NCBI GenBank assembly: GCA_905178155.1
Contig: CAJINV010000006.1
Span: 1,303,876 to 1,367,875, forward strand
Direction: 5' to 3'
DNA from: Amoebophrya sp. A120
Taxonomy: Eukaryota > Protista > Dinoflagellata
Length of the DNA: 64,000 bases
Part shown: positions 335 through 64,000 of the stretch, one piece after another
How the letters are laid out: each line of letters opens with the position of its first letter
How positions within the stretch are numbered: the first letter of the stretch is position 1
Notes under the pieces: model-generated
The model's input: only the letters and a program-made list of their open reading frames with translations
Told to the model about the DNA's origin: nothing
Databases searched by the model: none
Program-made: the position numbers and the translations under genes

Positions 335-958
335 ATGGCGACTTTGAAGAACATTGTCCTCGCCGCCGCCTCGATGGCTTTGCTGGCGGGCAACAGCGGA
401 GTCGACGCCGTGGAGGTTCTGATGTCCAACCAGAACAAGATCGCCACCGCCCAAAACAAGAAGAAGACCGCTGAGCTGCACAAGAAGGTGCACAAAGCGG
501 CGTCTCAGCACCAGGAGAGCAAGAAAACCGCGACGCTGTCGAAGGAAGGGGCTACGCCCCTGATTTGCGACCCTATCCAAACGGAACTGTGTCGCGCTAA
601 AAATTATGGAACCAAAATCTTGCAGCTAAGAGCAATAATTCTTCATGTAGCTGCTATAGTTCCCCCCCTCCTCCTTTTTTTTTCTGATACAGATACTGTG
701 TCTGCTTTTGCCTTTGCATGTGCTAAAAGCGTAGTAAGATAAATCAAAATTTGGTATGCATACTAATCAATACCCAACACTGTGGCAAAAAAAAGGAACG
801 GATCGGAAAACTAGTAGCAACAACTGCTCAAGCTCAAGATTTTGCTATAGGATATGTACGCTAATCCAGCCGAACCCATTAACGTTGCGACCCAAACTGC
901 GTTGCTCGAGGCGGCTGGGTGCACAGTGAAAAGCTGCTCCACGGGTTGCTGCCGCTAA
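335..958 (+). CDS. Small secreted protein, 2 exons (335-604, ~860-958)
   Basis: Signal-peptide-like N-terminus MATLKNIVLAAASMALLAG. Removing element 605-854 plus 5 bp gives in-frame ANPAEPINVATQTALLEAAGCTVKSCSTGCCR*. Confidence 0.6.
605..854. mobile_element. Introner, singleton family, degenerate
   Basis: TATggaaccaaaatcttgcagct...agctcaagattttgctataggATA inverted ends; TSD not conserved; +5 rule restores frame. Confidence 0.6.
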
Positions 959-1453
959 GATGGGAGCCGGTAGTTTGGGTTTATCTTTATTCTTCTTGCG
1001 CCGGCGTGCCAGCACGCGACAAGGATTAACACCATGTTGTACAAAATAACTACACCAAAAGAAGTGCCAGTACCATCTTAGTGGAGTAGTTGTTCATTTC
1101 GTTTTGATTGCATATCAAAAGAAGCTACGCCCACATGTAAAAATCTTTCTAGATTTCTTGTCGAACGTCAAAAACTTGTAGAGACATCATCCATACGCTG
1201 CAGTATTATACATAGTATACTCCGCAGCCCGGCTTCCTCTGCTCGTGCGTATCCCGCACGGTAAGGAAACCATTGAGGGCAAACCATATTACCAGTTTAT
1301 TTCCATCCTACAACAAATCTGTAGCACTCCTGTAGTTTTGAAAATTTTTAGAAAAGTCATATCATTTGTTCAGAAAGTTTTTTGTTTTTAGATTTTAGCT
1401 GCTCAACGAATCCAGTTCCAGCGCGATGTAGTCCTCGACCATGAGCAATGTGA

Positions 1454-1778
1454 TATCAAAACGAAAAATCCCCCTTCCCCATATCAAAACGAAGTTTCTG
1501 ATGCCGGATTTGCGTACACAAATCTGATTTGTCTTGCAGTAAGGCAGCGCAGCCAGATCCTCGGCCTAGGTAGGGGCGTTTGGGTCTAGTTGCTTAGCAT
1601 TACAAACGGCTGCCCCCTAGGCGCAACAGCATGCCTAATCGCTTCCATAATGGAGCGGAAGCTTCTGCACTTGTCTTCTTGCAAGACAGACGTGATTTGT
1701 GGTCTCAAATCAGCAACGCAAATTTTCGGAGTCATACTTTTTCGATATGTTGGGGAGGGGGGATTTTTCCTTACAATA
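1454..1778. mobile_element. Introner family C (TIR TAT..gaaaaatccccctccccatatc)
   Basis: TAT...ATA, TSD tgtga/tgtga; host transcript unclear. Confidence 0.9.
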
Positions 1779-5700: not shown

Positions 5701-6138
5701 GTGGTAGAAGATCAAGATGGAGAGATTTACACTGAAGTCGAAGTGTCTTCCGGAAAGAGTGACAGGGCGACAGAAGAGTTTTTTTTCCCTGTTTCGCGAT
5801 ACCAGATAGAGAGGAAACCGCGTGATTTTCTTTCCGTTGTTGAGCGCAGAGTGGTGGAGGTCCTCTGCGACGTAAGTAGGTGTACCTACTACAGCGTAGC
5901 GCTGAGAGCGAGGTAGTATGAATGTTTTGAGTAGACACTATTAGATAGAAAAACCAGTTTGTTGTAGCTACTAGCGCCAGTCCTCGTTCATTTCGTTGAT
6001 CTTCCTGTTGTGTTGATTTTGCGTGTTTTCCTCCTGGAGCAGGTCTAGTACTTCTTCACATTGAGCTGTCAAAGGAGTCATGTGTCGTGGTGTCGAGGAT
6101 CCTCGTCACAAATAAATCTCTGAAACGGGCGAGTATCG

Positions 6139-7209: not shown

Positions 7210-10200
7210 ATGTTTTTCTTTCTCGCATCTTCAATTATCATCCCTGAAGCATCCGCCTCGGCCTTGCTTTCTTCTTTAAACCTCGACGACTGCCAGTGCG
7301 CGGTGGAAGACGGAAGGTGTCCGAACGGGTACTCCTGCCACTGCGAAAAGCCGAAGGATATTCTGGGCGATCCCTACGACTGCGCGACGGATACTAAGTG
7401 CTACAACCCGGTGTGTATCATGTGCAAGTATGTCTGGGTCTGGAAGAATGCATGTTTGTCATGCTTGTCGGGCATGACTCTTAAGTCTGTGATGCACGGC
7501 ACCCAAGAGCTCCACTGTTCTGTCATGCAGAAACGCAGTTTGTCATGCAGAATAGGCAACACCTAGAAGCTCAGAAACTTGTCATCCTGAGCCAGCACTT
7601 GTGGCCTCCTCATGATACGCCACCCAGCATCACAAGTTTCCAGACCCAGACGCAGACACATTTGCAATGCATAGTGCGCCCGGCCGGGTACTGGAAGTGC
7701 TGCTTCGACTGCGAATACAATTCCTGCGCGTTCTATGGATGTGTCAGGATCGAAATCGACAAAGTCGAGAAATTTGTGATGCACAAAATGTAGGGCACTG
7801 AAGGCCTGTATTGGGCAGCAGGCAAATGAAACCGATTGTAAGCCTGTTTAGGGGCGGTATGCAATGCGCTGCCAGAGTAGCATGACAGGAGCAGTCTTCT
7901 TTGCCTAGACAGCATGACATACTGGCCTTGGGTGCTCCCGAAATTTGTCATGCGCCGCTTGGAAACTGAGGCTCCAACTGGTATCGATTTTGTGCATCAC
8001 AAATTTTTCGACTTTGTCAATTTCGATTCTGACACCTCCATACTTTCCAAGACGGGTTTTACATCCAGTCGCCGTCTTATGAGAGTGCACAACTTGTTCC
8101 CCTCCCCCTCATTTGTCATGCAAAAACCCCAAATCCAAGTGATAATTCCATGTGGCATTGTTTGCATGACAGATTCCGGAAGCCCAACCAGTACTACGCT
8201 AGGCGCATGAATCTGTCATGCACAGGCTCCGCGTGTGCTGGTGTTTGTCGTGCTGTTCATGCAATACAAATGAGGGGGAGTTCGGAGTTGTGCACTGTCA
8301 TACGTCGTTCCAGCAAGCCAGCTTTCTCCGGCCCTTCTGGCTCGAGGAAGCCATCGTCACCCACGTGACGGATCCGAGTGCAGATTCCAGTGGCGGCTAT
8401 GAATTGCAAAAGTTAAAGTAGCGTACAAGTAGTCAAAATTGCAATACAAACTAGCGCAGCACGACTAATTGAATTTCTTGTAGCCATTTTGGCTCAAGAT
8501 CCCTTTGAAATTCTCACCTCACCAATAAATCGGTGGGTGGGGGGGTCTTCGAGTTTTTTACTCTTACCACAGCGGCACCGTGTAGAGGTAGTTGACATTT
8601 TACTGAATGAGAGACGTAGAACGCAGCTACAATTTACACCGCACTAGAAACAAGTTGGTAGATTGAGTAGGCTACGATCATAACGCAAACAGACACTGAA
8701 TGCGAAAACTACAACTCACTTATAAAAACTACACATATTCAAAATACGCAACTCAGAAATAAGACTAGAAATACGCAAGCCCATCCATAAAAACAAAAAA
8801 ATCTAAAAACAAAAAAATAAACTCAATATATGCGCGCAACGCTAACGGGGAAAAGCCGCGAACCTTACCAAGACAAGCGGAACAGAGACGCGACTACTTC
8901 CAGACCAAGAACTTCGGAGCTTGAACATTGTGGACTTCAGATTTCGCATCTTCGACTTCAGAAAGAGCTGCAGAAAACCGCGACCGCCAAAAGCAAGTCT
9001 CGGGCGCCGTACATTGATAAGAGCAGGCAGCAGAAGACTTCGCCACAGCAAAAAGCCAGGGCCGGCCACAAAGCAAGGGCAACTAGTAACACGCGACGCA
9101 TTGGGCTCGCTGTCATTTTGCCTGCGTTCGAAGTCGGCGAGAGCGAAGCAAGAGAGGACCGCTGATACAGAATGAAAGGAGAGCGGCTGCGAATGTGAAT
9201 GGAGCAGGAAAAGATAGCAGTAACTGGAACAAAAGTTCCGCCCTTTATAGTGAAGATGGAGGATAGGCGGGAGATGAGTCCTGCTCAAGTCGTTTGCTAC
9301 TTTGCTTAGCCCACCATAAAACTTCCGGGGACGACTTGATGAGGATTGAGGACAGCTGTGTTACATTTCGTCGAGCCGCTTGCTACTTTGCTTAGCCCAC
9401 CATAAAAACATCCGGGGGCGACTCAATGAAAAGGACATAGCAAGAACAGCTTCACTATATTTATTATTTAACCCCGTGCTGGGTAATACTACTACTACTA
9501 CTTGTCATGCTGATGTACCTTAATACGGCAGAATTGTCATGCACGGCTGCAATTAGATGACTTACTACGAGCACGATACTTTTGCACAGGATAGCGGCAG
9601 TTCCTCGGCGAACTCCGACACCGGTTCTGCTGTGTACTCCTCCGACCGAATCGGCCCGGCGGCCAACAACGGCGCGGCCAGTGCGCTGTCCGGCATCACC
9701 AACGTGCAACGTGCCGACGCGGGGACGCCCCTCACTCCCGTGGTGAAAGAAAACATCAAGCCGCCCATCGTCTCCGGGACGGACTACCACGGTGCTATCA
9801 ACGGCATGCACGGGGGTCGGGAGCTGAACCTGATGAACACGGAGCTCACGCTATCCTGAGTAAAAACGTTCCCACACCAGAGTTGTCATGCAAATCTGCA
9901 TGCCAAAAAAGTTTGTCATGCGGAGCGCCATGAGAGGCATTTTCTAGCCGTGTTTTGGAATTTGTCATGCTACAATCAGCGTGATATACTAGATCTGTGA
10001 TGCTGCTGAACTACCTAAACAGGATTGCACTAGTACGAGGACAAACTTGTCATGCCAAATGACCAAAGCTGGCTGATTTGTCTAGCAGATTTCCCATCGT
10101 GACTCTGGTGTGGGGACGTTTTTACAAATGATACACACTGAGCTCCCGGGGCCGCATGGAGTGCCTCCCCTGCCGGAAAGGCGACTACTGCATATGCATC

Positions 10201-12835
10201 GCAAAAGTATCGTACTAGTAGGAATAACGTTACAAATTTTCTCAGCATGATGAGAAAGGAAACTTGTAATGCGGATTTAAGTTGGCAAAAAAATGTGTAA
10301 TGCATAAAATGCGATTAGTACGAGTGCGATACTTTTACAATGCATACTGGACCGGGTGCGACAACTTTGCGAAGTGCCCGGAGGAAGAGCGTATCAAATG
10401 CAAAAGTGTCTGGGTCTGGAAGAGTTCCAACTTGTCATGCTAAGTCTGGATCATGCAAAACTCTGTCTTGCGTGATCACCAAAAGCTGCACTTTTTTAAC
10501 CAACACGAGAGGCAGTTTCTCATGCAGAATAGGCATGATACAGAGCTCGCAAAATCTGTCATGCTAGGTCCTGCATTCCAGACCTCGTAGGGCATCGAAA
10601 TTTTGCATCACAAGTTTGTATTCTTCCAGACCCAGACATATTTGCAATCCATAGAGCGCCGCGACGCGCTGCGGGGCTATGCCCGGTACAGCGTGCCGAG
10701 GCTGAGCAACTCGAAATCGGTTTTCGCCAGGGAGTATAAATTGCAAAAGTGTATCGTAGTCATACTAGTAGAACTTCAACTTGCTCAACAGCATTTTTAC
10801 AAATGAAACTTGTAATGCAGAAGATCTACCTTAAGAAATACATTGTTGCACGATTGCAATCACTACGAGTACGATACTTTTGCAGTTCATACGGAGTGCG
10901 CCCGCTGCCCGGACGGGTGGGAGCCTGATTTGTGGCTGCGGCGGTGTGTGAGGGAGTAAGTAGTATTTTTGATGCTATCTAAGCATGACAGATTCTTGTG
11001 TGCTCTGAAGTGCGCATCCTTCCAACTTATTTCCACCAGACCCGGATGACTACATGTAATTCTAAATTATTTGCAATGCACGCAATACAAAATTGAAATT
11101 TGCAATGCAAAAAACGCTATACCAGGTTCCGCAACGAATGCGACATGGAGCTGCTGCATCTTTGCATGGACATATGGGAGTGCACAACTCCCCCTCCCCT
11201 CATTTGAATGACATGAGCAGCAACACAAGCAACGCAAGAAATATGGCTTCCGCATGACAAATCTGCAGACGGATTACAGCACTGTTTGAGGCTCCAAGTA
11301 GATTTCTCATGCAAACTGTGCTCGAGGGCAAGACGTGGATTTGGTATTTTGCATTACAAATGAGGGGGAGGGAGAGTTGTGCACTCTCATAGGACAGGTG
11401 CTATTATTATGACGAGTGCGAGCGGCACCAGTGTCTCGTTAACTGCGTATGAAATGCAAAAGCATCGTACTAGTATAAATCGCATGACAAATTTCCTCAG
11501 CATGAGAAATGAAATTTGTAATGCGGATTTAACTTGAGAAAGAAATTTGTAATGCATGACTGCGATTACTACGAGTACGATACTTTTGCACAGGATACTG
11601 CGCACGGGAGGACGAAAATCCCCGGTATGTTTTGCAAATATCGACCTGGGTCAACAGGATAGTTGTGATGCACGATTCCAAGGACAAAACGATCTGTGAT
11701 GCATGAAGACAAGTCGCCAGCGTTTTTGTCGTGCTAGAAGCCAGTTTGTCATGCGTTCCCCTGATACGGATGAATTGTGAATTCGTAACAAGCCCTTTAA
11801 GAAATTTCTCATGCCGTTATGCCTCACAAGCGGCTACTCTGCGATGGAAGGTTCAGCAACACAAGTTTCCAGGAGACCCAGATCGATATTTGCGGTGCAT
11901 ACTAGGTGCAGGGAAGCAATGCTGGAAACTTGCGAGGAGTTGAATTCTTTAACGCGGGAAATGGTGATTACCGATCCGAGTTTATTACCAGCCAGCGCGA
12001 CGACGGTATAATGATTTGTCTTTGTCATGCTAGACGAGGTAATATCTTCAGATGCGACATACGCTATAGCGCAATACAAACAGCCGTAGAATTAAAAACA
12101 ACATACTAGGTCACGACCTCTACGACCGGCATCAACGAAGATTCCGGTTTGTCTATGCAAGAAAAAAACTATGTAAGTGTACACTTGTGTTGCAGAACAT
12201 GCAACATAGTTACACCTGTCATGCCAGACAGCCATGAAGCCCTCTACTTTTCATGTGTGTTTTTCCTTACAAGCCACGCATGACAGGTTTTCTCTGTCAT
12301 GTAAAGCAAATTATTTGTGATGTTGTTCCTCAAAGAAAGTTACACTTACACACTTTTTTTCTGGATATTGTCCGTCCTAGCCGCGATGGAGGTGGACTAC
12401 CAGTGCAATACTGTGAGGAAAAATCCCCCCTCACCATATCGAAAACGAAATTTGTGATGCTCTATTTGAGTACACAAATTGACTTGTATTGCTAGAAGGC
12501 CAAGAAATGCAGACGATGCCCCGTTTGCAGGCAATTTGTCATGCTGCTTCCGATTTCCAGCTGCCTCCTGTCGTGCTGAAGATGCAAGGCTTTCCCACGC
12601 AGCCCAGCACTACAGTCCGCATCTTTTCCCTTCTAGCATGACAGCGTGATTTGTGATCACCAATCACGCTACACAAATCTACCATTGAGCATGGGGAGGG
12701 GGGTTTTTCCTTCTGATATGCAATCTGAAGTGCGGGAGAAACACCGCGAGTGGGTTGAAACTGTCGAGTACTGTGGCTTTGGTGGCGATTTTGATGTTGA
12801 CGGTGGGGGCGGGTGGCGGGGGGATTTTTGTTTAG
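7210..12835 (+). CDS. Cysteine-rich secreted/surface protein, 16 exons, C-terminal hydrophobic (TM or GPI-signal) tail
   Basis: Signal peptide MFFFLASSIIIPEASA. Removing 15 introns gives one frame with CYNPVCPAGYWKCC, MECLPCRKGDYCTGC, CARCPDGWEPD, ending VALVAILMLTVGAGGGGIFV*. Confidence 0.8.
7416..7673. mobile_element. Introner family A (TIR TAT..tgcaaa.atgtctgggtctggaag)
   Basis: TSD gtgtg/gtgcg. Confidence 0.9.
7734..8042. mobile_element. Introner family E (TIR TATgg..gtgtcaggatcgaaatcgac)
   Basis: TSD cgttc/ctttc; similar to 52350-52655. Confidence 0.9.
8078..8302. mobile_element. Introner family D (TIR TATgagagtgcacaactccccctcc)
   Basis: TSD cgtct/cgtcg. Confidence 0.9.
8480..8498 (+). 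other. Relic dinoflagellate spliced leader
   Basis: GTAGCCATTTTGGCTCAAG = 3' 19 nt of DinoSL DCCGTAGCCATTTTGGCTCAAG; followed by AT, not the GT donor of an SL-RNA gene. Confidence 0.9.
8482..9500 (+). mobile_element. Retroposed SL-trans-spliced transcript nested in an introner
   Basis: Starts with SL, ends with a (TAC)n tail, flanked by cttgt/cttgt; internal ~50-bp direct repeat near 9293 and 9380. Confidence 0.7.
9852..10133. mobile_element. Introner family F (TIR TATcctgagtaaaaacgt.ccca)
   Basis: TSD cacgc/cacac. Confidence 0.9.
10193..10346. mobile_element. Introner family B
   Basis: TSD ctgca/ctgga. Confidence 0.9.
10392..10653. mobile_element. Introner family A
   Basis: TSD gagcg/gagcg. 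Confidence 0.9.
10735..10891. mobile_element. Introner family B
   Basis: TSD gggag/cggag. Confidence 0.9.
10956..11125 (+). other. GT-AG intron with introner vestiges
   Basis: GTAAGT...ctATAccAG; joins CVRE|FRNECD; internal gcatgaca motif. Confidence 0.75.
11173..11391. mobile_element. Introner family D
   Basis: TSD ggaca/ggaca. Confidence 0.9.
11448..11597. mobile_element. Introner family B
   Basis: TSD ctgcg/ctgcg. Confidence 0.9.
11626..11901. mobile_element. Introner (TIR TATg...gcaaatatcga.ctgggtc) that also has GT-AG ends (11625-11905)
   Basis: TSD cccgg/ctagg; G-TAT...ATA-ctAG. Confidence 0.85.
12006..12109 (+). other. GT-AG intron with introner vestiges
   Basis: G-TATaatg...caacATA-ctAG, internal tttgtcatgc; joins ASATT|VTTST. 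Confidence 0.75.
12154..12367. mobile_element. Introner family G (TIR TAT.caagaaaaaaact.tgtaagt)
   Basis: TSD ttgtc/ttgtc. Confidence 0.9.
12409..12718. mobile_element. Introner family C (TAC start)
   Basis: TSD tgcaa/tgcaa. Confidence 0.9.
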
Positions 12836-38768: not shown

Positions 38769-39020
38769 TATAACCCGCTCAGGTGTTACAATCTCAAACG
38801 TCACAATAGAATTCGGAATTTGTGTTGCAAGAAGTGCATGATCTACCCTGCTCCCACAGGATTGCGCATGACAAGTTCTGGAGTCCCAATCCGCACCACA
38901 ATCTGCCGAAATTTGTATTGCAGAAAGTGGAAAGCTGTCCGAGTCTGTCATGTTGATCATGCAAGACAAATCTCAGATTCTATTGTAACGTTTCGGATTG
39001 TAACGTTTGAGCAGGTCATA
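38769..39020. mobile_element. Introner family J (TIR TATa.cccgctcaggtgttacaatc)
   Basis: TSD gaaca/gaaca; similar to 55346-55606. Confidence 0.9.
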
Positions 39021-52185: not shown

Positions 52186-55100
52186 ATGTCGGGGGCTGGA
52201 CATAACCCGAGCACGCTGAACTCCACCAGCCTGGTGGGCAGCGATGGCTACAACGAAAAGCAATACACTGCCTTGCGGGAGCCGCGAGGAGATGGAAGTG
52301 AACTCTTGCCACTCGATTACTTCAGGAATTCCACGGCCTCCGTGACATGTATGGGAGTGTCAGGATCGAAATCGACAAAATCGAAAAATTTGTCATGCAC
52401 AAAATGTAGAGCACTGAAGGCCTGTGTTGGGGAGCAGGCATATGGGACCGATTGCGAGCCTGTTTAGGCGTATGCAATGTGGTACCAGAGTAGCATGACA
52501 GGAGCAGCCTTCTTTGCCCAAACAGCATGACAGACTGGATTTGGGTGCTCCCGCAATTTGTCATGCGCCACTTGGAAACTGAGGCCCCAACTGGCATCGA
52601 TTTTGTGCATCACAAGTTTTTCGATTTTGTCGATGTCGATCCTGACACTCTCATAACATGTCCCGTCTACGCCTACTACAAATACCAGCCGCAGGTGGCC
52701 GAGGTTTGCCTGCACTGCCCCCGCATTGTCCGGCTCTGGCAGGACAAGAAAGACGACCCGAACGCCCGGCAGCAGGCGTCCAAGCTTATCAGATGAATGC
52801 ACAAGAACTTCAACTCCCCCTCACTTGTAATGCAAAACACCAACAAATCCACGCGTTGCCTGTGCCTCTTGGCACTGTTCGCATGACAAGTTCTGGCAGG
52901 GCCCAAATGGCACTACACTCCTGTGCAATAAATTTGTCATGCAAATAAACCTGCACTATTGCTGACGCTCCTTGTATTGCAGTTCATGCCATACAAATGA
53001 GGGGAGGGGGAGAAGTTGTGCACTGTTATAAAGCTACTGGGCGTGTCCGAAGCGGCGCTGGAGAAAAAGGGCGTGCCCCTATGCATTGCAAATTTGTCTA
53101 GGTGTGGAAGTAGAGTTCCAACTTGTCATGCAAAGTCTGGATCACGGGAACAAAATCTATGTTGTTGCGCGATTGCCATCAAAAGGTGCCAAGGGTTGAA
53201 CAAGTTGAGAGGGAGTAGTTGCTTCTCTTGCAGCACAGGCATGATGCAGTGACAGGTCTCAACACAAAATGTGTCATGCTACGACCTGCAGCATTCCCGA
53301 CCTTAATAAGGTTGAGAACAATGCTGCAGGTCCTAGCATGATAGGACCTGCGTGACAAGTCTTGCAAATGCAATCCCCCATCCCCAGACATGTTTGCGTT
53401 TGCCGTGGATAGCTTGCCGGCATGATCTGCCGGGAGGGGGGGCTGAAGCTGTGCCGTGCGGGCTACTACTGTCCAGACGTGGGTACGGAGCTCCAGGCGC
53501 CGAAGGGCTTTTACACGCGCTCCGGCTGGACTGAGCCCCGAGAATGTATCGGGCCCACGTGGCTGCGCGTATGAACTGCAAAAGTATCCGATACTTGTAT
53601 CAATGCATTACAAATTTGAATTTCATCCTCAGCATGAGAAATAAAATTTGTAGTGCGGATTTACTTTAGCAAAGGGATTTGTAATACATGATTGCAATAC
53701 GAGTGCGATACTGTTGCAATGCATAGCGCGACTGCCATACCAACTACCGGGAGCCGCCCTGGCAGGAGCGTGGGACCTTCTTTTCCGCTATCACAGGAAA
53801 AAGCGTTAACGTTAACGGAGTTTGTGATGCAGTAATGCATCACAAAACGTGCCAAGATTTCTCATGCATAGCATGCACGCTAGGCAAAATTTGTGATGCA
53901 TATTTGCAATCTATGAAAACCGTGAACGTTAACACTTTTTTGTTTGATATCCGCCTTTTTTGCGGAGCCGGTGATAGTCGAAAACTATTCCAACTTACCC
54001 ACCAAGCTGAAAACCACCAAGGGCTACTCGGCGCCGGAGATCCACGACGAATTGTTTTGGCTCCTCGCGGTCTTCATCTTCCTGATGGGTGTTTTTTCAA
54101 TATTTTGCCTGCAAACCTTTCGCGAGTACGTGATGAGCGGCAAACTGCCCCGGTCCTGGGAACAGTATGGATTGCAAAAGTATCGTTATGTATAAATTGC
54201 ATCACAAATTTCGGCAAGAACAGAAGTGGAATTTGTAATGCTGTTTCAGCGATTTCGATTTGGAAAGAGATTTGCCATGCATGATAACTGCAATTATCTA
54301 CTTATACGAGTGCGACACTTTTGCAGTGGATAAAGAGATCAAAAAAGCCTATCTCCCCGGCGGTAGTCACAAGCGGTCTGGCAAGCGTCGAGACAAACAG
54401 TTTCAGAGGCGGTATCAAATGTAAAAATGTCTGGGTCTTGAAAGTTGGAGCTTGTAATGCTAGCTTTACATTACTGGAAAATCTGTATAATTGCATAAGG
54501 AACAAGGGACGCAGCTACTTTTGTCATGCAAGAACGCAGTTTCTCATGCGGAATTTCTATGAGAAAGCATTCTGGAAAGTTGTCATGCTGGGCTGCATTC
54601 GGAAGTGTTTCCATCATCCACATTTTAGCATCACAAGTTTCCAGACCCAGACATTTTTGCATTTGATAGGCGGCGGGACCGGCTGAAAGCCTTTGTCTCG
54701 GACCACGACAAGAATTTTACGGAGGGGGATGCGGATATCGCAAGAAAAAAACTGTTTCACTGTAAACGTGCAATGCAGAAAATGCATCACAGAAGTGTTT
54801 GTCTCGCTACACATGCAAGACAAGCCGTGTGTTTTTCCCTTTGAGGGATCCTCACATGGCCAGTTTTCTTTGTCATGTGTAGTAACAGAGTTGTAAGGCC
54901 AAACTTGCAGAAATTTTGCAGCAAAATCCATACAGCGAGACAGTTTTTTCGTACGATAGCGGAGGATGACGAAGTTTATCACCTCCGCGACCTAGAGGAG
55001 GAGCTGTTGCACATGCTGGGCTACGAGCTAAAGGAAGAGAATCTCCTGGTGGAGACGGGCCTGCTGCAACATAATCAAGGTCACCAGCATCTAGTATCGA

Positions 55101-58100
55101 CGGTGGTGGACGACCCAAGTCATGTTGGCGGAAGAAGCGTCAAGAACAAGATTAAAAAACCTTCCGGAGATGTTAAAGGGGAGCAAGCGACGGGGGAAGA
55201 ACTCGTCTTGCAGGACAACTACTCATCTTCCGCTCTTCCTCCAGGGTCTTTCTCTGTGACGAAACGGGCTGAAGGAAGTGCGGTGGTCGAAGCGGGTGAT
55301 AATATCCTACTTGATGGAGTGGTTGTAGAAGACAACGACCTGTCCTATACCCCGCTCAGGTGTTACAATCTCAAACGTTACGAATAGAATAATGGAAATC
55401 TGTGTTGCCAGAGTGCATGATCTAGCCAACTCTCATAGGATTGCGCATGACAAGTTCCGGAGTCGGGAGTCCCAAACCCCACTACAATCTGGCGAAATTT
55501 GTATTGCAGAAAGTGGAACGCTCTGCGAGTCTGTCATGCTCATCATGCAACACAAAACCCAGATTCTATTGTAAAGTTTGAGATTGTAACGTTTGAGCAG
55601 GTCATATGTCCTTTCACAGTGGCGAAGAGGGCGAGGAAGAGGAAGATGAAGAACAATGCCAGCAGGACCGAGAAACCTCCGACCAGCATGATGTTGTCCA
55701 ATTTATGCCTTCATCTTCCCGCTCGAAAAATCCGAAAGCTGAGGGCGAGCAGGCGGCCTTGTCAACAACCTCTTCGAAGCAGGGCAATATCAGTGTTATT
55801 TCTGCGAAATCCCGTGCGATGCAGGTGCAGCAAAAACAGCAGGCCGCACGGGCCGCTGCGGGAACAGTGTCAGTGTCGATGAATCCAAATGCAACAGTAG
55901 CTTCCGTTGCAGCTGGTGGAACTTTTCCCAAGAAGGTGCGGTTAATCAATGAAGTGGATGTTGAAAAACAACCGTCCCGACTGCGTCACGAAGAAGGGGT
56001 GGAACTACAGCCGGTAAGAACAACATCTTCCAAGCCTTCTATGTCCTCTCCAAGGACAGAAATATCAAAACCTGTTCCAGTCGATGTAGGAGCCCACAGC
56101 TCCGATGAAGAGCCCGTCGTCCCCCCAGCCCTGCGCATCACGTTTGAAGACCTGGACTTCACGGTCGGACCGTATCAACTGTAAAAATGTCTGGGTTTGG
56201 AAGAATGCAAGTTTGTCATGCTTGTCTGGCATGACTCGAGAATGTGTGTTGCTTGGGCACGAAAAACCCTCTTACCTGTCATGCGAAAACGCAGTTTGCC
56301 ATGCGGAACACGTAAGACATGGTTTGTATGATGAGGTCGCCGAAAGTGCTGCCTCGCCCACCCCCCGGCGAGGGGATCCTTGACCTGTGGCGCTGGGTGC
56401 GGGTGTCCACTACATGATGATGACGTAAGACATGGCAGCCAAAAAATTTGTCATGCGTAGCTGCGTATTGCAGTGCGTCTACCATTCATTTTTAGCATTA
56501 CAAGTTTCCAGAGCCAGACCCAGACATTTTTGCATTTGATAGACCGAAAGCCGTGCTGAAATCGGTCAAAGGCTCCTTCGCCCCCGGCTCCCTCGTCGCG
56601 GTGATGGGCGCTTCCGGGGTATCGCGAGGAAAAAGCCCCCCTCCCCATATTGATGACAAGGTACGTTTTCGGAAATTTGTGTTGCTGTTTTGTGGCCACA
56701 AATCACGCCTGTCTTGCAAGGAGGCAACCCCACAGACAACCGCCGCGCTATGCGTTCGCTTTGTCGTGCTGTTGGGCCTACAGGAGCACGGACGTTTTTC
56801 ATGCTAGGCGCCTAGGCCAGAGCCTCTCTACTCAGGCTTGATATGGGTCATCTGCAGTCCTCTCCAGCAAGACAAAGCTGATTTGTGTACGCAGGTCCGG
56901 CGTCAGAAGTTTCGTTTTTATGTGGGGAGGGGGGATTTTTCGTTTTGATATTGGGCGGGAAAAACCTCCTTTGTGAATGTCGTGGCAAACAAACTCCAGT
57001 CTTACGCAAATGCCGGGCAGTTACGAATCGACGGGCAAATCCGGCTGGGGCTCGTGGAGGACGGCTGTCAACAGTTCCCGTCCGAGGTTGGCTACGTTCC
57101 GCAAGACAATGTGATGTTTGACGAACTTTCGGTGTGGGCCAACCTCTATTTCGCCGCCAAGCTTCGCATGCCGAAGGGGACCGAGGACCATAAGATCCGC
57201 AAAACGGTCGACAACGTGCTGAAGATTCTGGAAATCGATCATGTCCGGAATAGTCTAGTCGGTGGCGTGGAGCAACGGGGGATATCTGGCGGGGAGAAGA
57301 AACGGGTGAGTATCGGAATGGAGTTGGTCGCATTACCACGCGTGCTGTTTCTCGATGAGCCGACGTCCGGTTTGGACGCGGCGGCTTCCATGAATGTCTG
57401 CCGATGCTTACGAAGATTGCGGAAATTCAATGTTACCACGGTCTGTGTCATCCACCAACCACGGCAGTCGGCTTTCTTACTCTTCGACCAGTTGCTGTTA
57501 TTGGCGAAGGGACAAGTGGTGTATCTCGGGTCCCCGTTTGGCGCCATCGAGTACTTCATCCGGCTCGGGTTCCCGTTCACCACCGGGGAGAATGCGGCCG
57601 ACTGGGTGTTGGACGTGCTGGAGGGGTTACACACTTGTCGCTTCGACGACAAGGGAAATCGGGCGATCGACTACGCAGCGGAGCTATCCTGTGCAACAGC
57701 ATCGTACTCGTACTAGACGCAGTCACGCAAGACAAATTTCTTAGTCAAGCTAAATCAGCATGAGAAATTTCATTTGTTGTGCTGAGCTAATTTGTATTGC
57801 AATCCTACCACGAGTACGATACTTTTGCAGTTCATAGGAGCAGTCCGGAAACAACGACAATGGTGCCCGAGGTGCACCGGGCACGAAGAAATCCCTGAAA
57901 GTGATCATTTATCCTGAGTAAAAACGTCCCCACACGACCAGAGTTAAGATGGAAAATCTGCTAGACAAATCGACCAGCTTTGGTTATTTCGCATGACAAG
58001 TTTCGATCCTCGTAGTGTAGTCCTCGTTTTAGCTAGTTCAGCAGCATCACAGATCTAGCGCATCGTGCTGGTTCTAGCATCGCAAACCCCATCAAAACGT

Positions 58101-61100
58101 CACGACTATAAAACGCTTCTCATGGCGGATATGGGTTTTCCCGCATGAGAAACTTTTTTGGCATGCAGATTTGCGTAACAGCTCTGGGTTGGGGACGTTT
58201 TTATTCAGAATATCATTTCCGAGGCCATCAGCGATCATTGGCGCCTTCGTATCGCAAGAAAAAAGTGTTACAGTTACACATTGTGTTGCAAGACCGGCAA
58301 CACAGACAACCTTTCTCATGCAGGAAATGCTTGGGAGCCTCGTTTCCTCGCTGTTTTCCCTTATGGCCTTCGCATTACTCTGCCACACAGAGAAAATTTG
58401 TGATGCAGAAACTCCAGCAAATGTGTAAACTGTAACGCTTTTTTCTCGTGATACTTCGCGAGTCCAAGCACCGCTTTGGGGACGCAACGCTCACGGAATT
58501 GGAGACGCTGGAACGCATTGCCAGCTATTTTCTGCCGCGGGAAAACAGAAGCACCGCGGTTGCAGCGGCCCGCGACGTAGGTCTTTCATCAGCACAGCAG
58601 GGGAATAAACAACTCGATCACCAGCAGCGGCACCAGCAGTCGCATCAGGACATTGACTACATTAACAAGCGAAGCCAAAGGAGCAACCAGCCTTTGTCCA
58701 CCGCGGGAGTCGCCTTTAGAGCTGCGGGATCTTCGCAAAAACCCCCGCGGGGACACAGAGAAGGCAAAACTCAAAACCATGATCAACATCTACTTATGGC
58801 GGTCTCAAATCAGTTACATTCTGAACTGTTACATGAATTATTGCAAAAATGCAAGAACAGTAACAGTCAAAGGGGCAAGCTTGCTGCTTTCGCATCACAG
58901 CAGATTTGGCACAGATTTAGATGCTGTTTAGCCCTTGTTCGGAGATTTGTCATGCTAAGTATAGCTTGATCTTCGTCACTCAGTGACCGCCAGTGACGGT
59001 CACTGGCGGGCTAGGGTCGTAGTTTTCCTTGACAAAAAATCCCATACATAACAGTTGAGAATGTGCCTGATTTGAGAATCTCATACATCTTAGTGATCAG
59101 CGGTTAACTCGCGCGGCCACGCTTGAGGATGAGGACTATGATGACGCGTTATTCCAAACGACCCCGCCCGTGATGCCAAATAGGAAGATGAGCAGCGCAG
59201 AGATGGCGGCGATGTTCCTCAGTAAAAGCAACAGCAAGAGTACACTATTAAAACTTGCAAATGCGAGTCCCCTCCACCAGCACCCAGAGGGCGAGCGGAG
59301 GAGCGGCGGACCGACCACGGTGGAACAAAATTATGATTCATCGGACCCGGAAACGAGGACAACGACAAGTGCGGATATAATTCCTCGCTCGGGCAGAAGC
59401 ACTACTACCACCACCACCACCAGCTACCGTACCAAAGGCGTCACCAGCACCGTACGGCTTGCTCTTGCGCAGCAAACGGCCAAGGGCCGCCTTTCAAGAT
59501 CTACCAGCACTCCCGGCAGAAATAGAATGACAAGCACATCCAGAATGCTGACTACACCGAATGCTCGTTTAATGTTCCTCGGAGGGTCCACCTCGCAGGA
59601 GCCGCGCCAGATGTTCAGTCGGGGAAGAAGTACTCGGAAGAGTAACTACGACCGGCGGACGACGCACTTAGCGCCACCTTTGCCCGAGAGCAGGCTGTTT
59701 TTCAATGGGGAGGAGTACGAGAAATGGCAGGAGTTGGAAATTTTATTTCGGATCCTTTTCAACGTTGATGAGGAGGAGGAGGAAGACGAGGGCTTGGGAA
59801 GCGAGAGTAATTCCTACACGGAAGAGGAACAAGACTATGAGAGTGCACAACTCCCACCTCTCCCCGCCCTCATTTGTCATTGCAAAATACCAAATCCAAG
59901 CACTGGTCTGTGATATTGTGTTCGCATGACGGATTCCGGAAGCTGCTGCTGCCCAAAGAACAGTACTTACATTACAGAGTACTACATTACGTTCTATGCA
60001 CGGGCTCCACAGGTCGTGTGGGTGTTTGTATTGCTGTCCAAGCAACAATACAAATGAGGGGGAGGGGGCCGAGTTCTTGTGCCCTGTCATAAAGACAACC
60101 AAGAACAACCCGGTGGTGGAGCACGCTTTCGCACGCATGTGGTTCGAAGCCGCATTGACCCCGACCACGAGTTAGAGAGCCTCCAGTCGACGTCGAGCGC
60201 CATTAGTTCTTCACGGGGCTTCGTCAGCACTGCTACTATAAACAAGCCTGGACCACGTGGTCGACATGATAAACTGCCGAAAAGATTTTGGAACTCCGCT
60301 ATCAAAAGGAAAATGCCCCCTCCCCATATCGAAAACGAAATGTGTCTGTGTGATGCTGTATTTGAGTACACAAATCGACTTGTATTGCTAGAAGGCCAAA
60401 AGACGCATCTGTGGCCTGAATTGCACGCAATTTGTCATGCTGTTTCACACTTCCAGTTGCCTCCTGTCATGCTGAAGATGCAAGGCTTTCCCACGCCAGC
60501 CAGCGCTACAGTCCGCATCTTTTGCCTTCGAGCATGACAAAGCTGATTTGTGGCCACAAATCTGCATCACAGACTACCGCTTTGATATGGGGAGGGGGGA
60601 TTTTTCTTCTTGATATCCGCCCTGATCGCGCTTTCCGTCGAGGACGTCCAAGATGTGCTGGAAGACGTTCTCTCCCGGCCGATTTCGCACAAACTGGTGC
60701 GCGAACTGCTGGACAGCTACGAGGCCGAATTTGCAATGAAATTCCCGAAGGCTCTCACGCAGTTGGACGCAGCGACAAGTGGGCCTCGTGCTAGTAGCCC
60801 TTCCTTCGGCGCGCATCAAATTCAAATTCAGACTCACACAACTGTGGCGCGACGTGCTGAGGGTAGTTCTGTATCACGAGGAAAAATCCCCCCTCCCCAT
60901 ATCAAAAGGAAGTTTCTGATGCTGGATTTGCGTTTACAAATCAGGTCTGTCTTGCAGTAGAGGACAGCAGGCTCCTGCCAAGCCTGAGTAGAGAGCTTTT
61001 GGCCTAGGCAGTTAGCATGAGAAACGTGTATGCTGTAGGCCCAACAGCATCACAAACCGCCCGCATAATGCGGCAGAGCCTGTGGAGTTGTCTTCTTGCA

Positions 61101-64000
61101 AGACAGACGTGATTTGTGGTCTCAAATCAGCAAGACAAATTTTCGGAGACATACCTTTTCGATATGGGGAGGGGGGATTTTTCCTCTCAATATTCTGGGC
61201 AGGCCCCTACCACGGCAATGGACTACTTGCCGGAGGTGCAGCGTGGTGGACCCAATTATACTGATTATCAAATGCAAAAATGTCTGGGTCTGGAAGCACG
61301 CGAACTTGTGATGCGCATTTCACTGCACAGACAAATCTCTCATGCATAGGCAGCAAAAGGTGCCCATTTCCTGTCACCAAAATGGGGGACTTGTCATGCA
61401 GATTAAGCAATGCGGAAGCTTCTCGAAATATGTGATGCTAGGGCTTCCATGAGAAGCATTTTGCGTCATGCAAAAACAGCATGACAAAAATCTGCATTCT
61501 TCCAGACCCAGACACTTTTGCAATCCATACTGATGGAAGTGCTGCGACGTCGCGACCGACGGTCGCTTCGACCGGGAGCGAGAACATGTCCGTGGGCCTT
61601 CCCGAGCGCGGAACTGGTTCGCAAATGAACCACGACGGCGGCATATGCATTGCAAATATGTCTGGGTCTGGAAGAATCCGAACTGCGCATGCTAAATCTG
61701 AGTCGTGAAAAAATCTGTGTTGCATGAACCGCACAAGTTAATCCATTTCTTGCCACGCAAAAGGCAAACTTCTCAAGCGGAGTCGGGCATTAAGAAGCTC
61801 ATGCAAAATTCCTACCGCTTCGGATCAGCTTCTGGGTGCATTCGTTCCCGTCCATCTTTGTGGTTCGCGAGATGCATGACATCACACCTCGCACTCCTCC
61901 AGATGTTCACCCAGACATGTTGGCATTTGATACGGCATGATGTTACCTCAGAACAACAAAAGCGTGCAGATTGGGTTGAATGGTCGTGCTACTGACAGCA
62001 AGAACTCTACTGCAGGCGATGTTCAGAGCAGAGGAACCAACCAGGCCGCGACCATCCAGCCGGGGCGCTCCAACATTCTGCGGCACTTCTTCTCGGACGG
62101 CAAAAGTAGTATTCCAAGCTCTGCTGGCGCGAAGACCACGTGGCAGGGGAAACTACTAACCAAAGCGGGTACAACTTCGACCACAAACATGAGTGGCGAT
62201 AGTACAAGTCACTTCGCGTCCTCTCTGTTACGAGAACCAACCCGACCGTCTTCAATAAACTCTGGCCCAGGAGGGCAAATCCAATTCGTGAACAACGAGG
62301 AATTTGTCCACCCCGGATCAATATCAAATGTAAAAGTGTCTGGGTCTGGAAGGATGCAAACTTGTGATGCTGTCTTTGGATTCTAAAGAAAAATGTATTG
62401 CATGACCAGCAAGAGGAATCCAGTTTGTACTACGTGGGGAAGACATTTCTCATGCGCAACAGGCATCAGGAAGTCCTCTAAAAATCTGTGATGCTGGACC
62501 ATGCATTACAGGCATCAGGGGTCATGCAAAATATGCATGACAAGCCTCTCACTCTTCCAGACCCAGACATTTTTGCACTCGATAATCAAGAGGCCAGAAG
62601 GTCGAATTTCTCGAGCAGGAGCATATGAATTTTCCGGCGTATCAAATGTAAAAATGTCTGGATCTGGAAGGTTGGAACTTGTGATGCTAACTTTGGACTC
62701 TAAAAAAATCTGTATTGCATGACCAGCAATAGGAGCCCAGTTTGTGCTACGCGGGGAGGCAATTTGTCATGCGGGATAGGCATCAGGAAGGCCTCTAAAA
62801 ATATGTGATGCCAGATCATGCATTACAGACATCCTGAGTCATGTAGAATATGCATGACAAACCTGGCAACCTTCCAGACCCAGACATTTTTGCATTTGAT
62901 ACGGCCCAACAAGAAATAACAAGACAAAACTTTCGCACCAGGCCCCCCACGACCACATACGGAGTAGTTCATCCGCCCACGAACAAGTCTATTATGCACC
63001 ACCGCTGCTCCCTCGCCGCCCTCGTGTACGGCCTGGGGCAGCAGATGCGGCAACAAAATTCCGGTCCCGGGGCCGGCACGGTGGTTGGCGTCGGCGACTA
63101 CTTGGCGCTAGATGCGGAGGAACGGCGGGGCATCTGGTTGCGGTCGCAGACCATGAGCGACGCGGAGCTATCAACTGCAAAAATGTCTGGGTCTGGAAGA
63201 TTCCTACATTTGTCATGCGTGTCTGACATGACTCAAGAAACTGTGATGCATGGACCCGAAGCGGTCCTCTTACCTGTCATGCAAAAACGCAGTTTGCCAT
63301 GCGGAACACGCAACAGATAGGAGCCCAAAAAATTTGTCATGCTCTGCTCCGTATTGCAGTGGAACCCTCATTGTTCACTTTTAGCATTACAAGTTTCCAG
63401 AGGACCCAGACATATTTGCAATGCATAGAAGCGGGCGCAGTACGAAAGTTACGGCGACGGCGGGTTAATCCAAAGGATTAAACCCTTGTTATCGAACCAA
63501 TTGTTAATTCTGTCTCTCCGCGCTCTGTGCCAGTTCCGGGTCCCGCTGTTCATCTCCAACATCGTGCTGGCGACGGTGGCGGGAATGCTGACCGGGATTT
63601 TCACGGGCGGGGGGGAGGAGCTGTTCTACACGCCCTGGCCAACGATGATGATTGGCCCGGTGCTACCCTGTGTAAAAACGTCCCCAACCCAGAGTTGTCA
63701 TGCAAATCTGCATGCTCAAAATGTTTGTCATGCGGAACCCCATGCGAAGCATTTTGTGGCTGTGTTTTGGAATTTGTAATGCGCCATTTTTTTAGCATGA
63801 TATACTAGATCTGTGATGCTGCTGAACTACCTCCAACAGCACTACACTGCCACTCCAAATTTGTCATGCAAAACAACCAAAACTCGTGGACTTCTCTAGC
63901 TGAATCCCCATCTTGACGTATGGGGTGGGGACGTTTTTTCATAGGATAGGTGCTGCTGTTTCAACTGTTAGTTTCCGCCGCCTCGCTGGAAGTCTTTTGC
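52186..64000 (+). CDS. ABCG-family transporter with Cys-rich N-terminal region; 3' end lies beyond the window; at least 24 introners
   Basis: Walker A GASG|AGKT, Q-loop GYVPQD, signature ISGGEKKRVSIG, LFLDEPTSGLD, IHQPR; N-terminal CRAGYYCP plus a TM; TMD begins ~63490. Confidence 0.92.
52350..52655. mobile_element. Introner family E
   Basis: TSD acatg/acatg. Confidence 0.9.
52787..53030. mobile_element. Introner family D
   Basis: TSD aagct/aagct. Confidence 0.9.
53080..53411. mobile_element. Introner family A, degenerate
   Basis: TSD gcccc/gcttg; frame restored. Confidence 0.75.
53570..53725. mobile_element. Introner family B
   Basis: TSD gcgcg/gcgcg. Confidence 0.9.
53789..53949. mobile_element. 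Introner, singleton family (TIR TATca..aaaaag.gttaacgtt)
   Basis: TSD tccgc/tccgc. Confidence 0.9.
54166..54332. mobile_element. Introner family B
   Basis: TSD aacag/aagag. Confidence 0.9.
54413..54668. mobile_element. Introner family A
   Basis: TSD ggcgg/ggcgg. Confidence 0.9.
54736..54958. mobile_element. Introner family G-like
   Basis: TSD gcgga/gcgga. Confidence 0.9.
55346..55606. mobile_element. Introner family J
   Basis: TSD tgtcc/tgtcc. Confidence 0.9.
56173..56541. mobile_element. Introner family A with 100-bp nested insert (56323-56422)
   Basis: TSD gaccg/gaccg; inner 13-bp duplication acgtaagacatgg. Confidence 0.9.
56620..56950. mobile_element. Introner family C splitting the Walker A motif
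   Basis: TSD cgggg/ttggg. Confidence 0.9.
57685..57836. mobile_element. Introner family B, reverse orientation
   Basis: TSD ggagc/ggagc. Confidence 0.9.
57910..58212. mobile_element. Introner family F
   Basis: TSD tcatt/tcatt. Confidence 0.9.
58250..58453. mobile_element. Introner family H
   Basis: TSD cttcg/cttcg. Confidence 0.9.
58795..59085. mobile_element. Introner family I
   Basis: TSD ctact/catct; frame restored. Confidence 0.8.
59836..60091. mobile_element. Introner family D
   Basis: TSD aagac/aagac. Confidence 0.9.
60300..60615. mobile_element. Introner family C
   Basis: TSD tccgc/tccgc. Confidence 0.9.
60872..61192. mobile_element. Introner family C
   Basis: TSD ttctg/ttctg. 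Confidence 0.9.
61266..61529. mobile_element. Introner family A
   Basis: TSD ctgat/ctgat. Confidence 0.9.
61644..61932. mobile_element. Introner family A
   Basis: TSD cggca/cggca. Confidence 0.9.
62322..62584. mobile_element. Introner family A
   Basis: TSD atcaa/atcaa. Confidence 0.9.
62640..62901. mobile_element. Introner family A
   Basis: TSD cggcg/cggcc. Confidence 0.9.
63169..63427. mobile_element. Introner family A
   Basis: TSD ggagc/gaagc. Confidence 0.9.
63664..63948. mobile_element. Introner family F (TAC start)
   Basis: TSD ggtgc/ggtgc. Confidence 0.9.

What the first reader, a model, noticed from the sequence alone, without database searches (positions are those of the whole stretch)
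605..63948. About 70 TAT...ATA MITE-like elements act as non-canonical introns under one rule (element + 5 bp)
Seen: at least 12 families with unrelated TIRs, nearly all TAT...ATA. By my count 46 of 69 clear copies have a perfect 5-bp TSD. Deleting the element plus 5 bp restores the frame in SDR, MFS, NHL, striatin and ABCG genes whose motifs are intact. Most copies lack GT-AG. Known: inverted-repeat/direct-repeat introners have been described in Amoebophrya, with an unresolved splicing mechanism. Inference: they are non-autonomous DNA transposons removed precisely at RNA level (DNA-level excision is not excluded). No transposase is present in the window.
Basis: partly seen in the sequence, partly recalled or inferred. 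Interest (0 to 1): 0.85.

Follow-up and report, generated by a model that had tools for sequence, protein, structure and literature searches.

The report
Amoebophrya transposon introns, one hidden cut
Sixty-nine small hairpin-ended transposon copies interrupt the genes of the marine parasite Amoebophrya and, wherever tested, are missing from likely RNA by their own length plus five bases; this is an already published system, but the telling junctions all fit one cut position, which suggests that a loosened spliceosome likely removes them.

Summary
Real, and already known. I find 69 TAT...ATA elements in 14 sequence groups; 46 of 69 have a perfect 5-bp target duplication (TSD; null 6 of 1554). 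Spliced SDR and ABCG models equal proteins that NCBI names Amoebophrya sp. A120, so these are the introner elements of Farhat et al. 2021 (TAT-N7-AAA ends, 5-bp repeats). RNA-like contigs of one sample lack element + 5 at 21 of 21 testable elements; DNA-like contigs keep them. What the paper's text leaves open: 14 junctions with mismatched TSDs fit only one register, N|TAT...ATA-NNNN (chance of any common register 0.002). The U and A at intron +2/+3 never change at the donor end (0 of 219) but do at the mirror end (9 of 219); G+1 and AG are at background. Best reading: a U1-less spliceosome reads N-U-A-Y and the hairpin sets the acceptor (inferred, about 0.6). Corrections: the TIRs are not unrelated (shared end grammar and internal 8-mer, also in GT-AG introns); element 605 has no TSD. 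No transposase found. This scan noted the same system, and the fixed cut, on other pieces of this genome.

The parts
605..849 (.). TAT..ATA element, single copy, TSD 1/5; possible exception to the +5 rule
   Evidence: no RNA test
1454..1778 (.). element, 320-nt group, perfect TSD, outside gene models
7210..12835 (+). host gene, Cys-rich membrane protein of unknown family, 13 elements + 2 GT-AG introns
7416..7673 (.). element, 260-nt group; TSD mismatch at 4; k>=4
   Evidence: (piece ends 7414; record arithmetic)
7734..8042 (.). element, 307-nt group; k 2-5
   Evidence: joint skips 314
8078..8302 (.). element, 220-nt group; TSD mismatch at 5; k<=4
   Evidence: joint skips 230
8398..9593 (.). 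long composite element (150-nt group ends, cargo inside), perfect TSD, removed as one piece
   Evidence: joint skips 1201
9852..10133 (.). element, 285-nt group; mismatch at 4; k>=4
   Evidence: joint skips 287
10193..10346 (.). element, 150-nt group; mismatch at 4; k>=4
   Evidence: joint skips 159
10392..10653 (.). element, 260-nt group
   Evidence: joint skips 267
10735..10891 (.). element, 150-nt group; k>=1
   Evidence: joint skips 162
10956..11125 (+). GT-AG intron
   Evidence: joint
11173..11391 (.). element, 220-nt group
   Evidence: joint skips 224
11448..11597 (.). element, 150-nt group
   Evidence: joint skips 155
11626..11901 (.). element, 260-nt group; the only one that reads GT..AG, and it does so at k=4
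   Evidence: joint skips 281
12006..12109 (+). GT-AG intron with element geometry (G+TAT ... ATA+CTAG), likely an aged introner
   Evidence: joint
12154..12367 (.). element, 215-nt group
   Evidence: joint skips 219
12409..12718 (.). element, 320-nt group, TAC start
   Evidence: joint skips 315
15942..19630 (+). host SDR gene, 884 aa, equals P0122; 4 elements + GT-AG intron 16668-16777
17136..17355 (.). element, 215-nt group, ACA end
   Evidence: arithmetic 335 = 110 + 225
18057..18209 (.). element, 150-nt group; mismatch at 3; k>=3
18581..18901 (.). element, 320-nt group
   Evidence: sum 699 with neighbours
18960..19169 (.). element, 207-nt group; mismatch at 5; k<=4
20343..23987 (+). host MFS transporter gene, 5 elements
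20467..20713 (.). element, 260-nt group
   Evidence: frame
21022..21295 (.). element, 260-nt group, TSD 3/5
   Evidence: frame
21610..21724 (.). element, single, ACA end
   Evidence: frame
21994..22147 (.). element, 155-nt group
   Evidence: frame
22848..23064 (.). element, 220-nt group, ATC end
   Evidence: (RNA piece starts 23065)
24343..32055 (+). host NHL-repeat gene, 10 catalogued elements + old element 25893-26092 + GT-AG intron 28392-28563
24524..24676 (.). element, 150-nt group
24713..24867 (.). element, 155-nt group
24932..25085 (.). element, 150-nt group, opposite orientation
25321..25561 (.). element, 241-nt group
25893..26092 (.). candidate old element outside the 69 (TAG start, TSD 3/5); removal + 5 joins the NHL frame, other cuts also would
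26796..26953 (.). element, 150-nt group
   Evidence: RNA piece starts 26954
28744..28899 (.). element, 150-nt group
   Evidence: sum 1016
28970..29208 (.). element, 220-nt group
   Evidence: sum 1016
29325..29594 (.). element, 260-nt group, TSD 4/5
   Evidence: sum 1016
30090..30248 (.). element, 150-nt group
   Evidence: sum 1016
31174..31494 (.). element, 320-nt group
   Evidence: (RNA piece ends 31168)
33211..33402 (.). further element outside the 69, perfect TSD, weak TIR
   Evidence: no RNA test
38228..38491 (.). element, 260-nt group, TSD 4/5
   Evidence: host gene not fully modelled
38769..39020 (.). element, 255-nt group
   Evidence: host gene not fully modelled
40275..48137 (+). host striatin gene, 1086 aa, 9 elements + 3 predicted GT-AG introns (41558-41680, 42467-42614, 47480-47586)
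40562..40782 (.). element, 220-nt group, TSD 3/5
   Evidence: frame
41783..42017 (.). element, 150-nt group enlarged, TAC start, TSD 1/5
   Evidence: frame
43007..43225 (.). element, 220-nt group, TSD 3/5
43420..44873 (.). long composite element (241-nt group ends, tandem repeats inside), perfect TSD
45081..45342 (.). element, 260-nt group
45403..45726 (.). element, 320-nt group, GTA end (no A at -7); removal needed for frame
45994..47045 (.). long composite element, 320-nt group ends, perfect TSD
47089..47350 (.). element, 260-nt group
47903..48052 (.). element, 150-nt group, opposite orientation, TSD 4/5
52186..64000 (+). host ABCG gene (runs off the window), 24 elements; 1808 aa equal the start of P0124
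52350..52655 (.). element, 307-nt group
52787..53030 (.). element, 220-nt group
53080..53411 (.). element, 260-nt group, TSD 2/5; k 3-4
53570..53725 (.). element, 150-nt group
53789..53949 (.). element, single
54166..54332 (.). element, 150-nt group; k>=3
54413..54668 (.). element, 260-nt group
54736..54958 (.). element, 215-nt group
55346..55606 (.). element, 255-nt group
56173..56541 (.). element, 260-nt group enlarged
56620..56950 (.). element, 320-nt group, inside the Walker A codons; k>=2
57685..57836 (.). element, 150-nt group
57910..58212 (.). element, 285-nt group, opposite orientation
58250..58453 (.). element, 207-nt group
58795..59085 (.). element, 241-nt group; k>=2
59836..60091 (.). 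element, 220-nt group
60300..60615 (.). element, 320-nt group
60872..61192 (.). element, 320-nt group
61266..61529 (.). element, 260-nt group
61644..61932 (.). element, 260-nt group
62322..62584 (.). element, 260-nt group
62640..62901 (.). element, 260-nt group, TSD 4/5
63169..63427 (.). element, 260-nt group; k>=2
63664..63948 (.). element, 285-nt group, TAC start

Best explanation
These are the introner elements of Amoebophrya A120, short hairpin-ended repeats with a 5-bp target duplication that likely spread as non-autonomous DNA transposons, stay in the DNA, and are missing from likely RNA by their length plus five bases, with one cut register that a loosened spliceosome likely sets by reading N-U-A-Y at the donor and using the predicted hairpin to place the acceptor. 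Steps. (1) Shown: TIR elements with 5-bp TSD sit in exons in both orientations, with no target-sequence preference. (2) Inferred: a DDE transposase acting in trans made the 5-bp stagger; it was not found, and the shared TAT-N7-AAA ends and internal 8-mer suggest one related set of enzymes rather than 12-14 unrelated ones. (3) Shown: transcripts lose element + 5, restoring the pre-insertion coding sequence. (4) Shown for the informative junctions, inferred for the rest: the exon keeps bases 1-4 of the left TSD and base 5 of the right, so the intron is N-TAT...ATA-NNNN (1-nt 5' and 4-nt 3' overhang on the stem). (5) Inferred: U+2 and A+3 are read as sequence (as in GUA donors), +4 tolerates U or C, G+1 and the 3' AG are not needed; the TIR stem holds the ends together and acts as a ruler. 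(6) Inferred: the catalyst is the U2/U5/U6 spliceosome; no lariat was observed here.
For: RNA: 12 joints and one piece end/record sum at 13 of 13 elements in 7150-13300, in X1-X4 (one sample), beside two GT-AG joints; 8 more by record arithmetic in X1, one singly and seven as two sums. Annotated proteins P0122 and P0124 equal my spliced models letter for letter (4 and 24 elements). DNA-like X5 crosses 14 element borders unbroken, 7 of them with 31+ letters inside. Register: k>=4 at 7416, 9852, 10193; k<=4 at 8078, 18960; k 3-4 at 53080; eight looser limits all admit 4; chance of any common register 0.053 on the 9 RNA junctions, 0.0024 on all 14. The one element that reads GT..AG does so at k=4 (11626). 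End asymmetry: TIR positions 1-2 changed 0 of 219 at donor ends, 9 of 219 at acceptor ends (p 0.004; 0 vs 6 without wobble-neutral changes, p 0.03); position 3 changed 7 times at donors, always to C. GT-AG donors here read GTA in 7 of 8 and GTAY in 6 of 8 (4 of the 8 RNA-supported). Hairpins: z below -2 in 64 of 66, stem positions 9-23 paired at 0.68-0.82 (12 shuffles each). Farhat 2021 section 10: U2, U4, U5, U6 and 83 of 89 proteins present in A120, U1 and snRNP27 not detected; Parker 2023 abstract ties SNRNP27K loss to +4 U donors in fungi.
Against: No drift towards GT or AG: in 197 oriented elements G+1 50, AG 14, both 5, all at background; a normal spliceosome needs these ends (established knowledge). 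No branch point found: the usual -18 to -40 zone lies in the stem; A at -7 is changed in 4 of 219, including 45403, whose removal the striatin frame needs; the internal 8-mer is 40+ nt from the acceptor, unbiased by strand (113/94 and 415/360) and absent from the sense strand of 14 of 69. The upper limit k<=4 rests on three junctions; a mixture of k=4 and k=5 or lower is not excluded. All RNA comes from one sample whose RNA status is the tool's guess, as contigs; raw-read runs X7 and X8 held 11 and 0 reads (no test). The annotated proteins derive from transcript-guided gene models, not from peptides. Orientation of metagenome elements is a codon-score inference (56 of 58 right on training data; 150 of 240 oriented). 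Farhat's Fig. 3 legend calls the splice sites variable relative to the hairpin.
Confidence: 0.6

Rival explanations
1. Same elements and register, but removed by a spliceosome-independent endonuclease and ligase that read the hairpin base (as proposed as one option for euglenid non-conventional introns, or like tRNA-splicing or IRE1/RtcB chemistry, recalled).
For: Strong hairpin in 64 of 66; fixed 1-nt/4-nt overhang; no need for G+1 or AG; U1 not detected in A120; euglenid precedent with circular excised introns (review section 6).
Against: Donor-only conservation of U+2/A+3 matches the GT-AG donors of the same genes; elements grade into GT-AG introns at the same register (11626, 12006-12109); acceptor-side changes that break the terminal pairs are tolerated (17136, 22848); most spliceosome parts are present.
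Confidence: 0.25
2. Removal is at RNA level but at variable positions within the TSD, as the published legend says; the common register is a small-number effect.
For: Only 6 of 14 informative junctions bound the register tightly; 0.053 by chance on RNA junctions alone; Farhat Figs 3 and S23 legends speak of 1-5 nt.
Against: 0.0024 with all 14; perfect TSDs make the cut look variable to any aligner (joints with 5-6 ambiguous letters).
Confidence: 0.12
3. Elements are excised from DNA in the expressing cells (as ciliate IESs, recalled), and the spliced contigs come from a processed genome.
For: Removal of element + one TSD is also what precise DNA excision gives; X1-X4 are only guessed to be RNA; contigs drop rare variants.
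Against: X1-X4 also skip GT-AG introns and hold low-depth unspliced pieces; X5 runs unbroken across borders and GT-AG intron 28392-28563 at flat 25-30 depth.
Confidence: 0.03

Closest known systems
Introner elements / non-canonical introns of Amoebophrya sp. A120 (Farhat et al. 2021, PMC7789003; sections 10, 11, 16, 31, 34, passages and supplement legends read; figures not seen)
   Same: Same organism by protein identity (P0122, P0124); IR starts TAT + 7 nt + AAA; direct repeats of 3-5 nt, 5 bp in Fig. S19; many families; RNA-supported; no transposase.
   Different: The text gives variable repeat length and variable splice position; here the TSD is uniformly 5 bp and one register fits. Donor-end asymmetry and the shared internal 8-mer are not in the sections I read.
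A120 introners in Gozashti et al. 2025 (PMC12130899; section 6 and passages read)
   Same: Tens of introners per gene; TIR DNA-transposon origin; some long families with integrase-like ORFs, which would suit a 5-bp TSD.
   Different: No such ORF in this window or in 546 kb of loci that I screened for long TIR pairs; no splice register in the parts I read.
Fritillaria borealis non-canonical introns (review PMC11282704 section 6; PMC13326754 passages)
   Same: MITE-derived introns with TIR and TSD handled by an adapted U2 spliceosome.
   Different: Preferred AG-AC/AG-AT ends and conserved U1 there; here N-U-A-Y donor, no acceptor motif, U1 not detected.
Euglenid non-conventional introns (review PMC11282704 section 6)
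   Same: TIR stem joining the ends with unequal overhangs; TSD-like repeats.
   Different: Pairing at +4..+6 with -8..-6 and circular products there; +2..+4 with -7..-5 here, product unknown.
IS3EU/GingerRoot and hAT5 DNA transposons (PMC10045372, PMC12730594 passages)
   Same: IS3EU/GingerRoot: TA..TA or TAY..RTA termini; hAT5: 5-bp TSD.
   Different: IS3EU/GingerRoot TSD is usually 6 bp; hAT5 termini not compared; no transposase in hand for either.

Membership tests
Amoebophrya A120 introner elements | host is Amoebophrya A120 | tested here: met
   spliced SDR = P0122 (884 of 884), spliced ABCG = first 1808 aa of P0124, both named Amoebophrya sp. A120
Amoebophrya A120 introner elements | inverted repeat starting TAT + 7 nt + AAA | tested here: met
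   93 of 138 ends; TAT at 131 of 138
Amoebophrya A120 introner elements | 3-5 nt direct repeat at the borders | tested here: met
   5 bp perfect in 46 of 69 and 261 of 334
Amoebophrya A120 introner elements | repeated families | tested here: met
   11 multi-copy groups in the window; 135 stretches for one TIR in metagenome contigs
Amoebophrya A120 introner elements | removed from transcripts without GT-AG | tested here: met
   21 of 21 testable elements; GT..AG in 1 of 69
MITE (non-autonomous TIR transposon) | short, TIRs, TSD, no coding capacity, many copies | tested here: met
MITE (non-autonomous TIR transposon) | cognate autonomous element with transposase | tested here: inconclusive
   none in the window or 546 kb of loci; no whole genome held
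IS3EU/GingerRoot | TA..TA termini | tested here: met
IS3EU/GingerRoot | TSD usually 6 bp | tested here: not met
   6-bp repeat 0 of 69 and 1 of 334
hAT5 | 5-bp TSD | tested here: met
hAT5 | hAT transposase | tested here: inconclusive
   no transposase family found
U2-type spliceosomal intron | GT/GC...AG ends | tested here: not met
   1 of 69 at k=4; background in 197 oriented elements
U2-type spliceosomal intron | conserved U+2 donor read as sequence | tested here: met
   0 of 219 changes at +2/+3 against 9 at the mirror positions
U2-type spliceosomal intron | branch point and lariat product | tested here: inconclusive
   no invariant A found; lariats cannot be seen in contigs
Euglenid-type non-conventional intron | excised as full-length circle, no lariat | not testable with these tools
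   needs excised-intron sequencing

The most novel reading that the evidence does not exclude
Tens of thousands of A120 introns obey one hidden rule: N|UAY at the donor and a cut exactly four bases past the TIR stem, with no acceptor sequence at all. This would be a spliceosome without U1 and without 3' AG reading, in which the transposon's own hairpin is the ruler, so that any insertion by a 5-bp-TSD transposase in either orientation is born as a perfect intron; GT-AG introns of this genome that start GTAT and carry the same 8-mer would be its aged products.
Probability: 0.45. Interest if true: 0.8.

Novelty: already known. Interest (0 to 1): 0.42.

Why it matters
The system is published, but how these introns are cut is an open question. 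A single register with a donor-only U-A signal turns it into concrete tests (mismatched-TSD junctions genome-wide, lariat mapping, donor versus stem mutants) and corrects the picture of 'variable' splice sites, which perfect TSDs produce in any aligner. If right, it shows a route by which a spliceosome can drop U1 and AG recognition and make exon insertions harmless, explaining genes with 24 transposon introns.

Tried and rejected
No whole genome held, so no genome-wide transposase or snRNA search. The joint table was swamped by X5 repeats, so lengths there come from record coordinates. Long TIR pairs with perfect TSD in loci: L043 5001-9208 (871-aa ORF) is two separate MITEs around host exons; L058 476-2934 was not read base by base and its ORFs were not scanned against Pfam. 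Long window elements hold no transposase-like ORF (83 of 93 listed ORFs scanned, the other 10 overlap exons scanned). TIR pattern in viral contigs: 0. Rfam on the window: 0. Internal 8-mer as branch point: rejected (distance 40+ nt, no strand bias). Invariant A at -7 as branch point: not supported (4 of 219 lack it). Drift to GT-AG or target preference: none. Mismatch counts by TSD position (window 3,7,6,4,6; loci 6,10,4,3,14) are too few to read. One search used a wrong ABCG frame; searches had three GT-AG introns off by some bases; one search timed out. Gene 34354-39100 was not fully modelled; candidate elements near 36240, 37420 and 37988 are unresolved. Literature: searches found no paper that gives the register; Roy et al. 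2023 and Henriet et al. [quoted passage not shown]

Full report
Observation. An unbiased inverted-repeat scan and an end-anchored scan, completed by blastn, give 69 elements of 115-1454 nt between 605 and 63948. Left ends are TAT in 66 and TAC in 3; right ends ATA in 65. Other TAT..ATA pairs give 6 of 1554. blastn gives 14 groups; at least seven groups occur in both orientations by a k-mer score.

The groups are not unrelated. 93 of 138 ends read TAT-N7-AAA; positions 1-3 and 9-14 are complementary in 55-68 of 69, positions 4-7 in only 27-38, the layout of a cleavage end, spacer and binding site (inference). The 8-mer T[GC]T[ACG]ATGC occurs 207 times in 19.5 kb of elements, once in 20.5 kb of exons, never in 9 kb between genes, and 9 times in 1.1 kb of eight GT-AG introns, at least once in each.

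Host. Exons carry adh_short, MFS, NHL, Striatin and ABC_tran/ABC2 domains. Removing element + 5 opens long frames; 43 of 69 removals are not multiples of three. The spliced SDR equals P0122 over 884 of 884 residues and the spliced ABCG equals the first 1808 residues of P0124; both are named Amoebophrya sp. A120. The next relatives are A25 and AT5 proteins, colinear across the junctions.

RNA. X1-X4 (one sample; RNA status guessed by the tool) skip element + 5 at 12 listed joints in 7150-13300, including 1201 nt for the composite 8398-9593, and record coordinates add 7416: 13 of 13; they also skip two GT-AG introns. In 14000-33500, X1 record coordinates give 335 = 110 + 225, 699 = 153 + 321 + 210 + 15 and 1016 = 172 + 824 + 20, covering 8 elements, and three more pieces start or stop at predicted borders. 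X5, flat at 25-30 and holding the GT-AG intron, runs unbroken over 14 borders, 7 with 31 or more letters inside, so the bulk DNA keeps the elements; rare excision cannot be seen in contigs. X7 and X8 gave no test.

Where the cut lies. Let k be the number of left-TSD bases kept in the exon. Mismatched repeats give k>=4 (7416, 9852, 10193), k<=4 (8078, 18960), k>=3 (11626, 18057), k>=2 (7734), k>=1 (10735) from RNA and k 3-4 (53080), k>=3 (54166), k>=2 (56620, 58795, 63169) from P0124 (62640 is silent). Only k=4 fits all. Independent random k would leave a common register with chance 0.053 (9 RNA junctions) or 0.0024 (all 14). The intron is thus N-TAT...ATA-NNNN. 11626 reads GT..AG at exactly this register, and the GT-AG intron 12006-12109 has the same geometry.

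What is read. In 150 oriented metagenome elements (of 240 found with free ends and perfect TSD) plus the 69, TIR positions 1-2 are changed 0 times at the donor end and 9 times at the acceptor end (p 0.004); position 3 is changed 7 times at donors, always T to C, and 4 times at acceptors. After insertion both ends are equal for transposition, so the asymmetry points to sequence reading of U+2 and A+3 in the RNA (inference). Against a normal spliceosome: G+1 (50 of 197), AG (14) and both (5) are at background, and no branch point stands out. The elements fold strongly (z below -2 in 64 of 66). GT-AG donors in the window read GTA in 7 of 8. Farhat et al. report U2, U4, U5, U6 and most proteins in A120 but not U1 or snRNP27; Parker et al. 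(abstract only) link SNRNP27K loss to +4 U donors in fungi; carrying that to Amoebophrya is my inference. I commit to a relaxed spliceosome with a hairpin ruler (0.6), against an endonuclease-ligase (0.25), variable cuts (0.12) and DNA excision (0.03). That these are A120 introners removed from RNA as element + 5 I hold at about 0.95.

Mobility. No transposase family in window ORFs or the three long elements; the best long candidate in the loci was a chance pair. Termini fit IS3EU/GingerRoot but the TSD does not; the TSD fits hAT5, Ginger2 or retroviral-type integrases. Gozashti 2025 describes A120 TIR families with integrase-like ORFs, a lead not testable here.

Known or new. Farhat 2021 describes the TAT-N7-AAA ends, 3-5-nt repeats (5 bp in Fig. 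S19), 1954 families and 29,850 repeated introns in A120: already known. The register, the end asymmetry and the shared 8-mer were not in the sections and legends I read nor in searches, but the figures were not visible. After my own tests, one search showed that earlier unreviewed notes of this scan reached the fixed cut and the internal motif on other pieces of this genome; they are not independent support, and one note's conserved A at -7 is not invariant here (4 of 219 lack it). Interest 0.42.

Noticed in passing
window 8480-8498: Inside the 1196-nt element, just after its left arm, 19 bases equal the 3' part of the dinoflagellate spliced leader (motif recalled; the recalled string is in 26 papers by search listing). 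The cargo may be a retrocopied, trans-spliced RNA captured by an introner.
   Followed up: partly
window 10956-11125, 12006-12109, 14203-14378, 16668-16777, 28392-28563, 41558-41680, 42467-42614, 47480-47586: All eight GT-AG introns carry the elements' internal 8-mer (7 sense, 2 antisense) and four start GTAT; many 'canonical' introns here may be aged introners.
   Followed up: partly
window 2100-7200: Three to four tandem, 85-94% alike copies of an intron-free ORF of about 360 codons with no Pfam match, leading into the start of the Cys-rich gene at 7210.
   Followed up: no
window 49020-51750: A 25-50-nt motif recurs in the gene-free stretch (about 49020, 50017, 50695, 51706; three copies confirmed); no Rfam match.
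   Followed up: partly
window 43500-44460: 11-nt and 96-100-nt tandem arrays fill the long element 43420-44873.
   Followed up: no
window 46140-46415 and L038 164-435: The interior of the long element 45994-47045 has an 80% copy in locus L038, so this long form or its cargo is itself repeated.
   Followed up: no
window 17512: X1 and X5 both read G where the window has A: a strain difference or assembly error, not editing.
   Followed up: no
window 7674-7733, 8043-8077, 11598-11625, 58213-58249: Spacers between elements are as short as 28-60 nt, which suits intron definition by the element itself. All modelled genes lie on the + strand.
   Followed up: no
window 36240-36412, 37420-37640, 37988-38150: Frame breaks in the gene at 34354-39100 have decayed TAT/ATA-like ends without a clear TSD; likely old introners.
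   Followed up: partly
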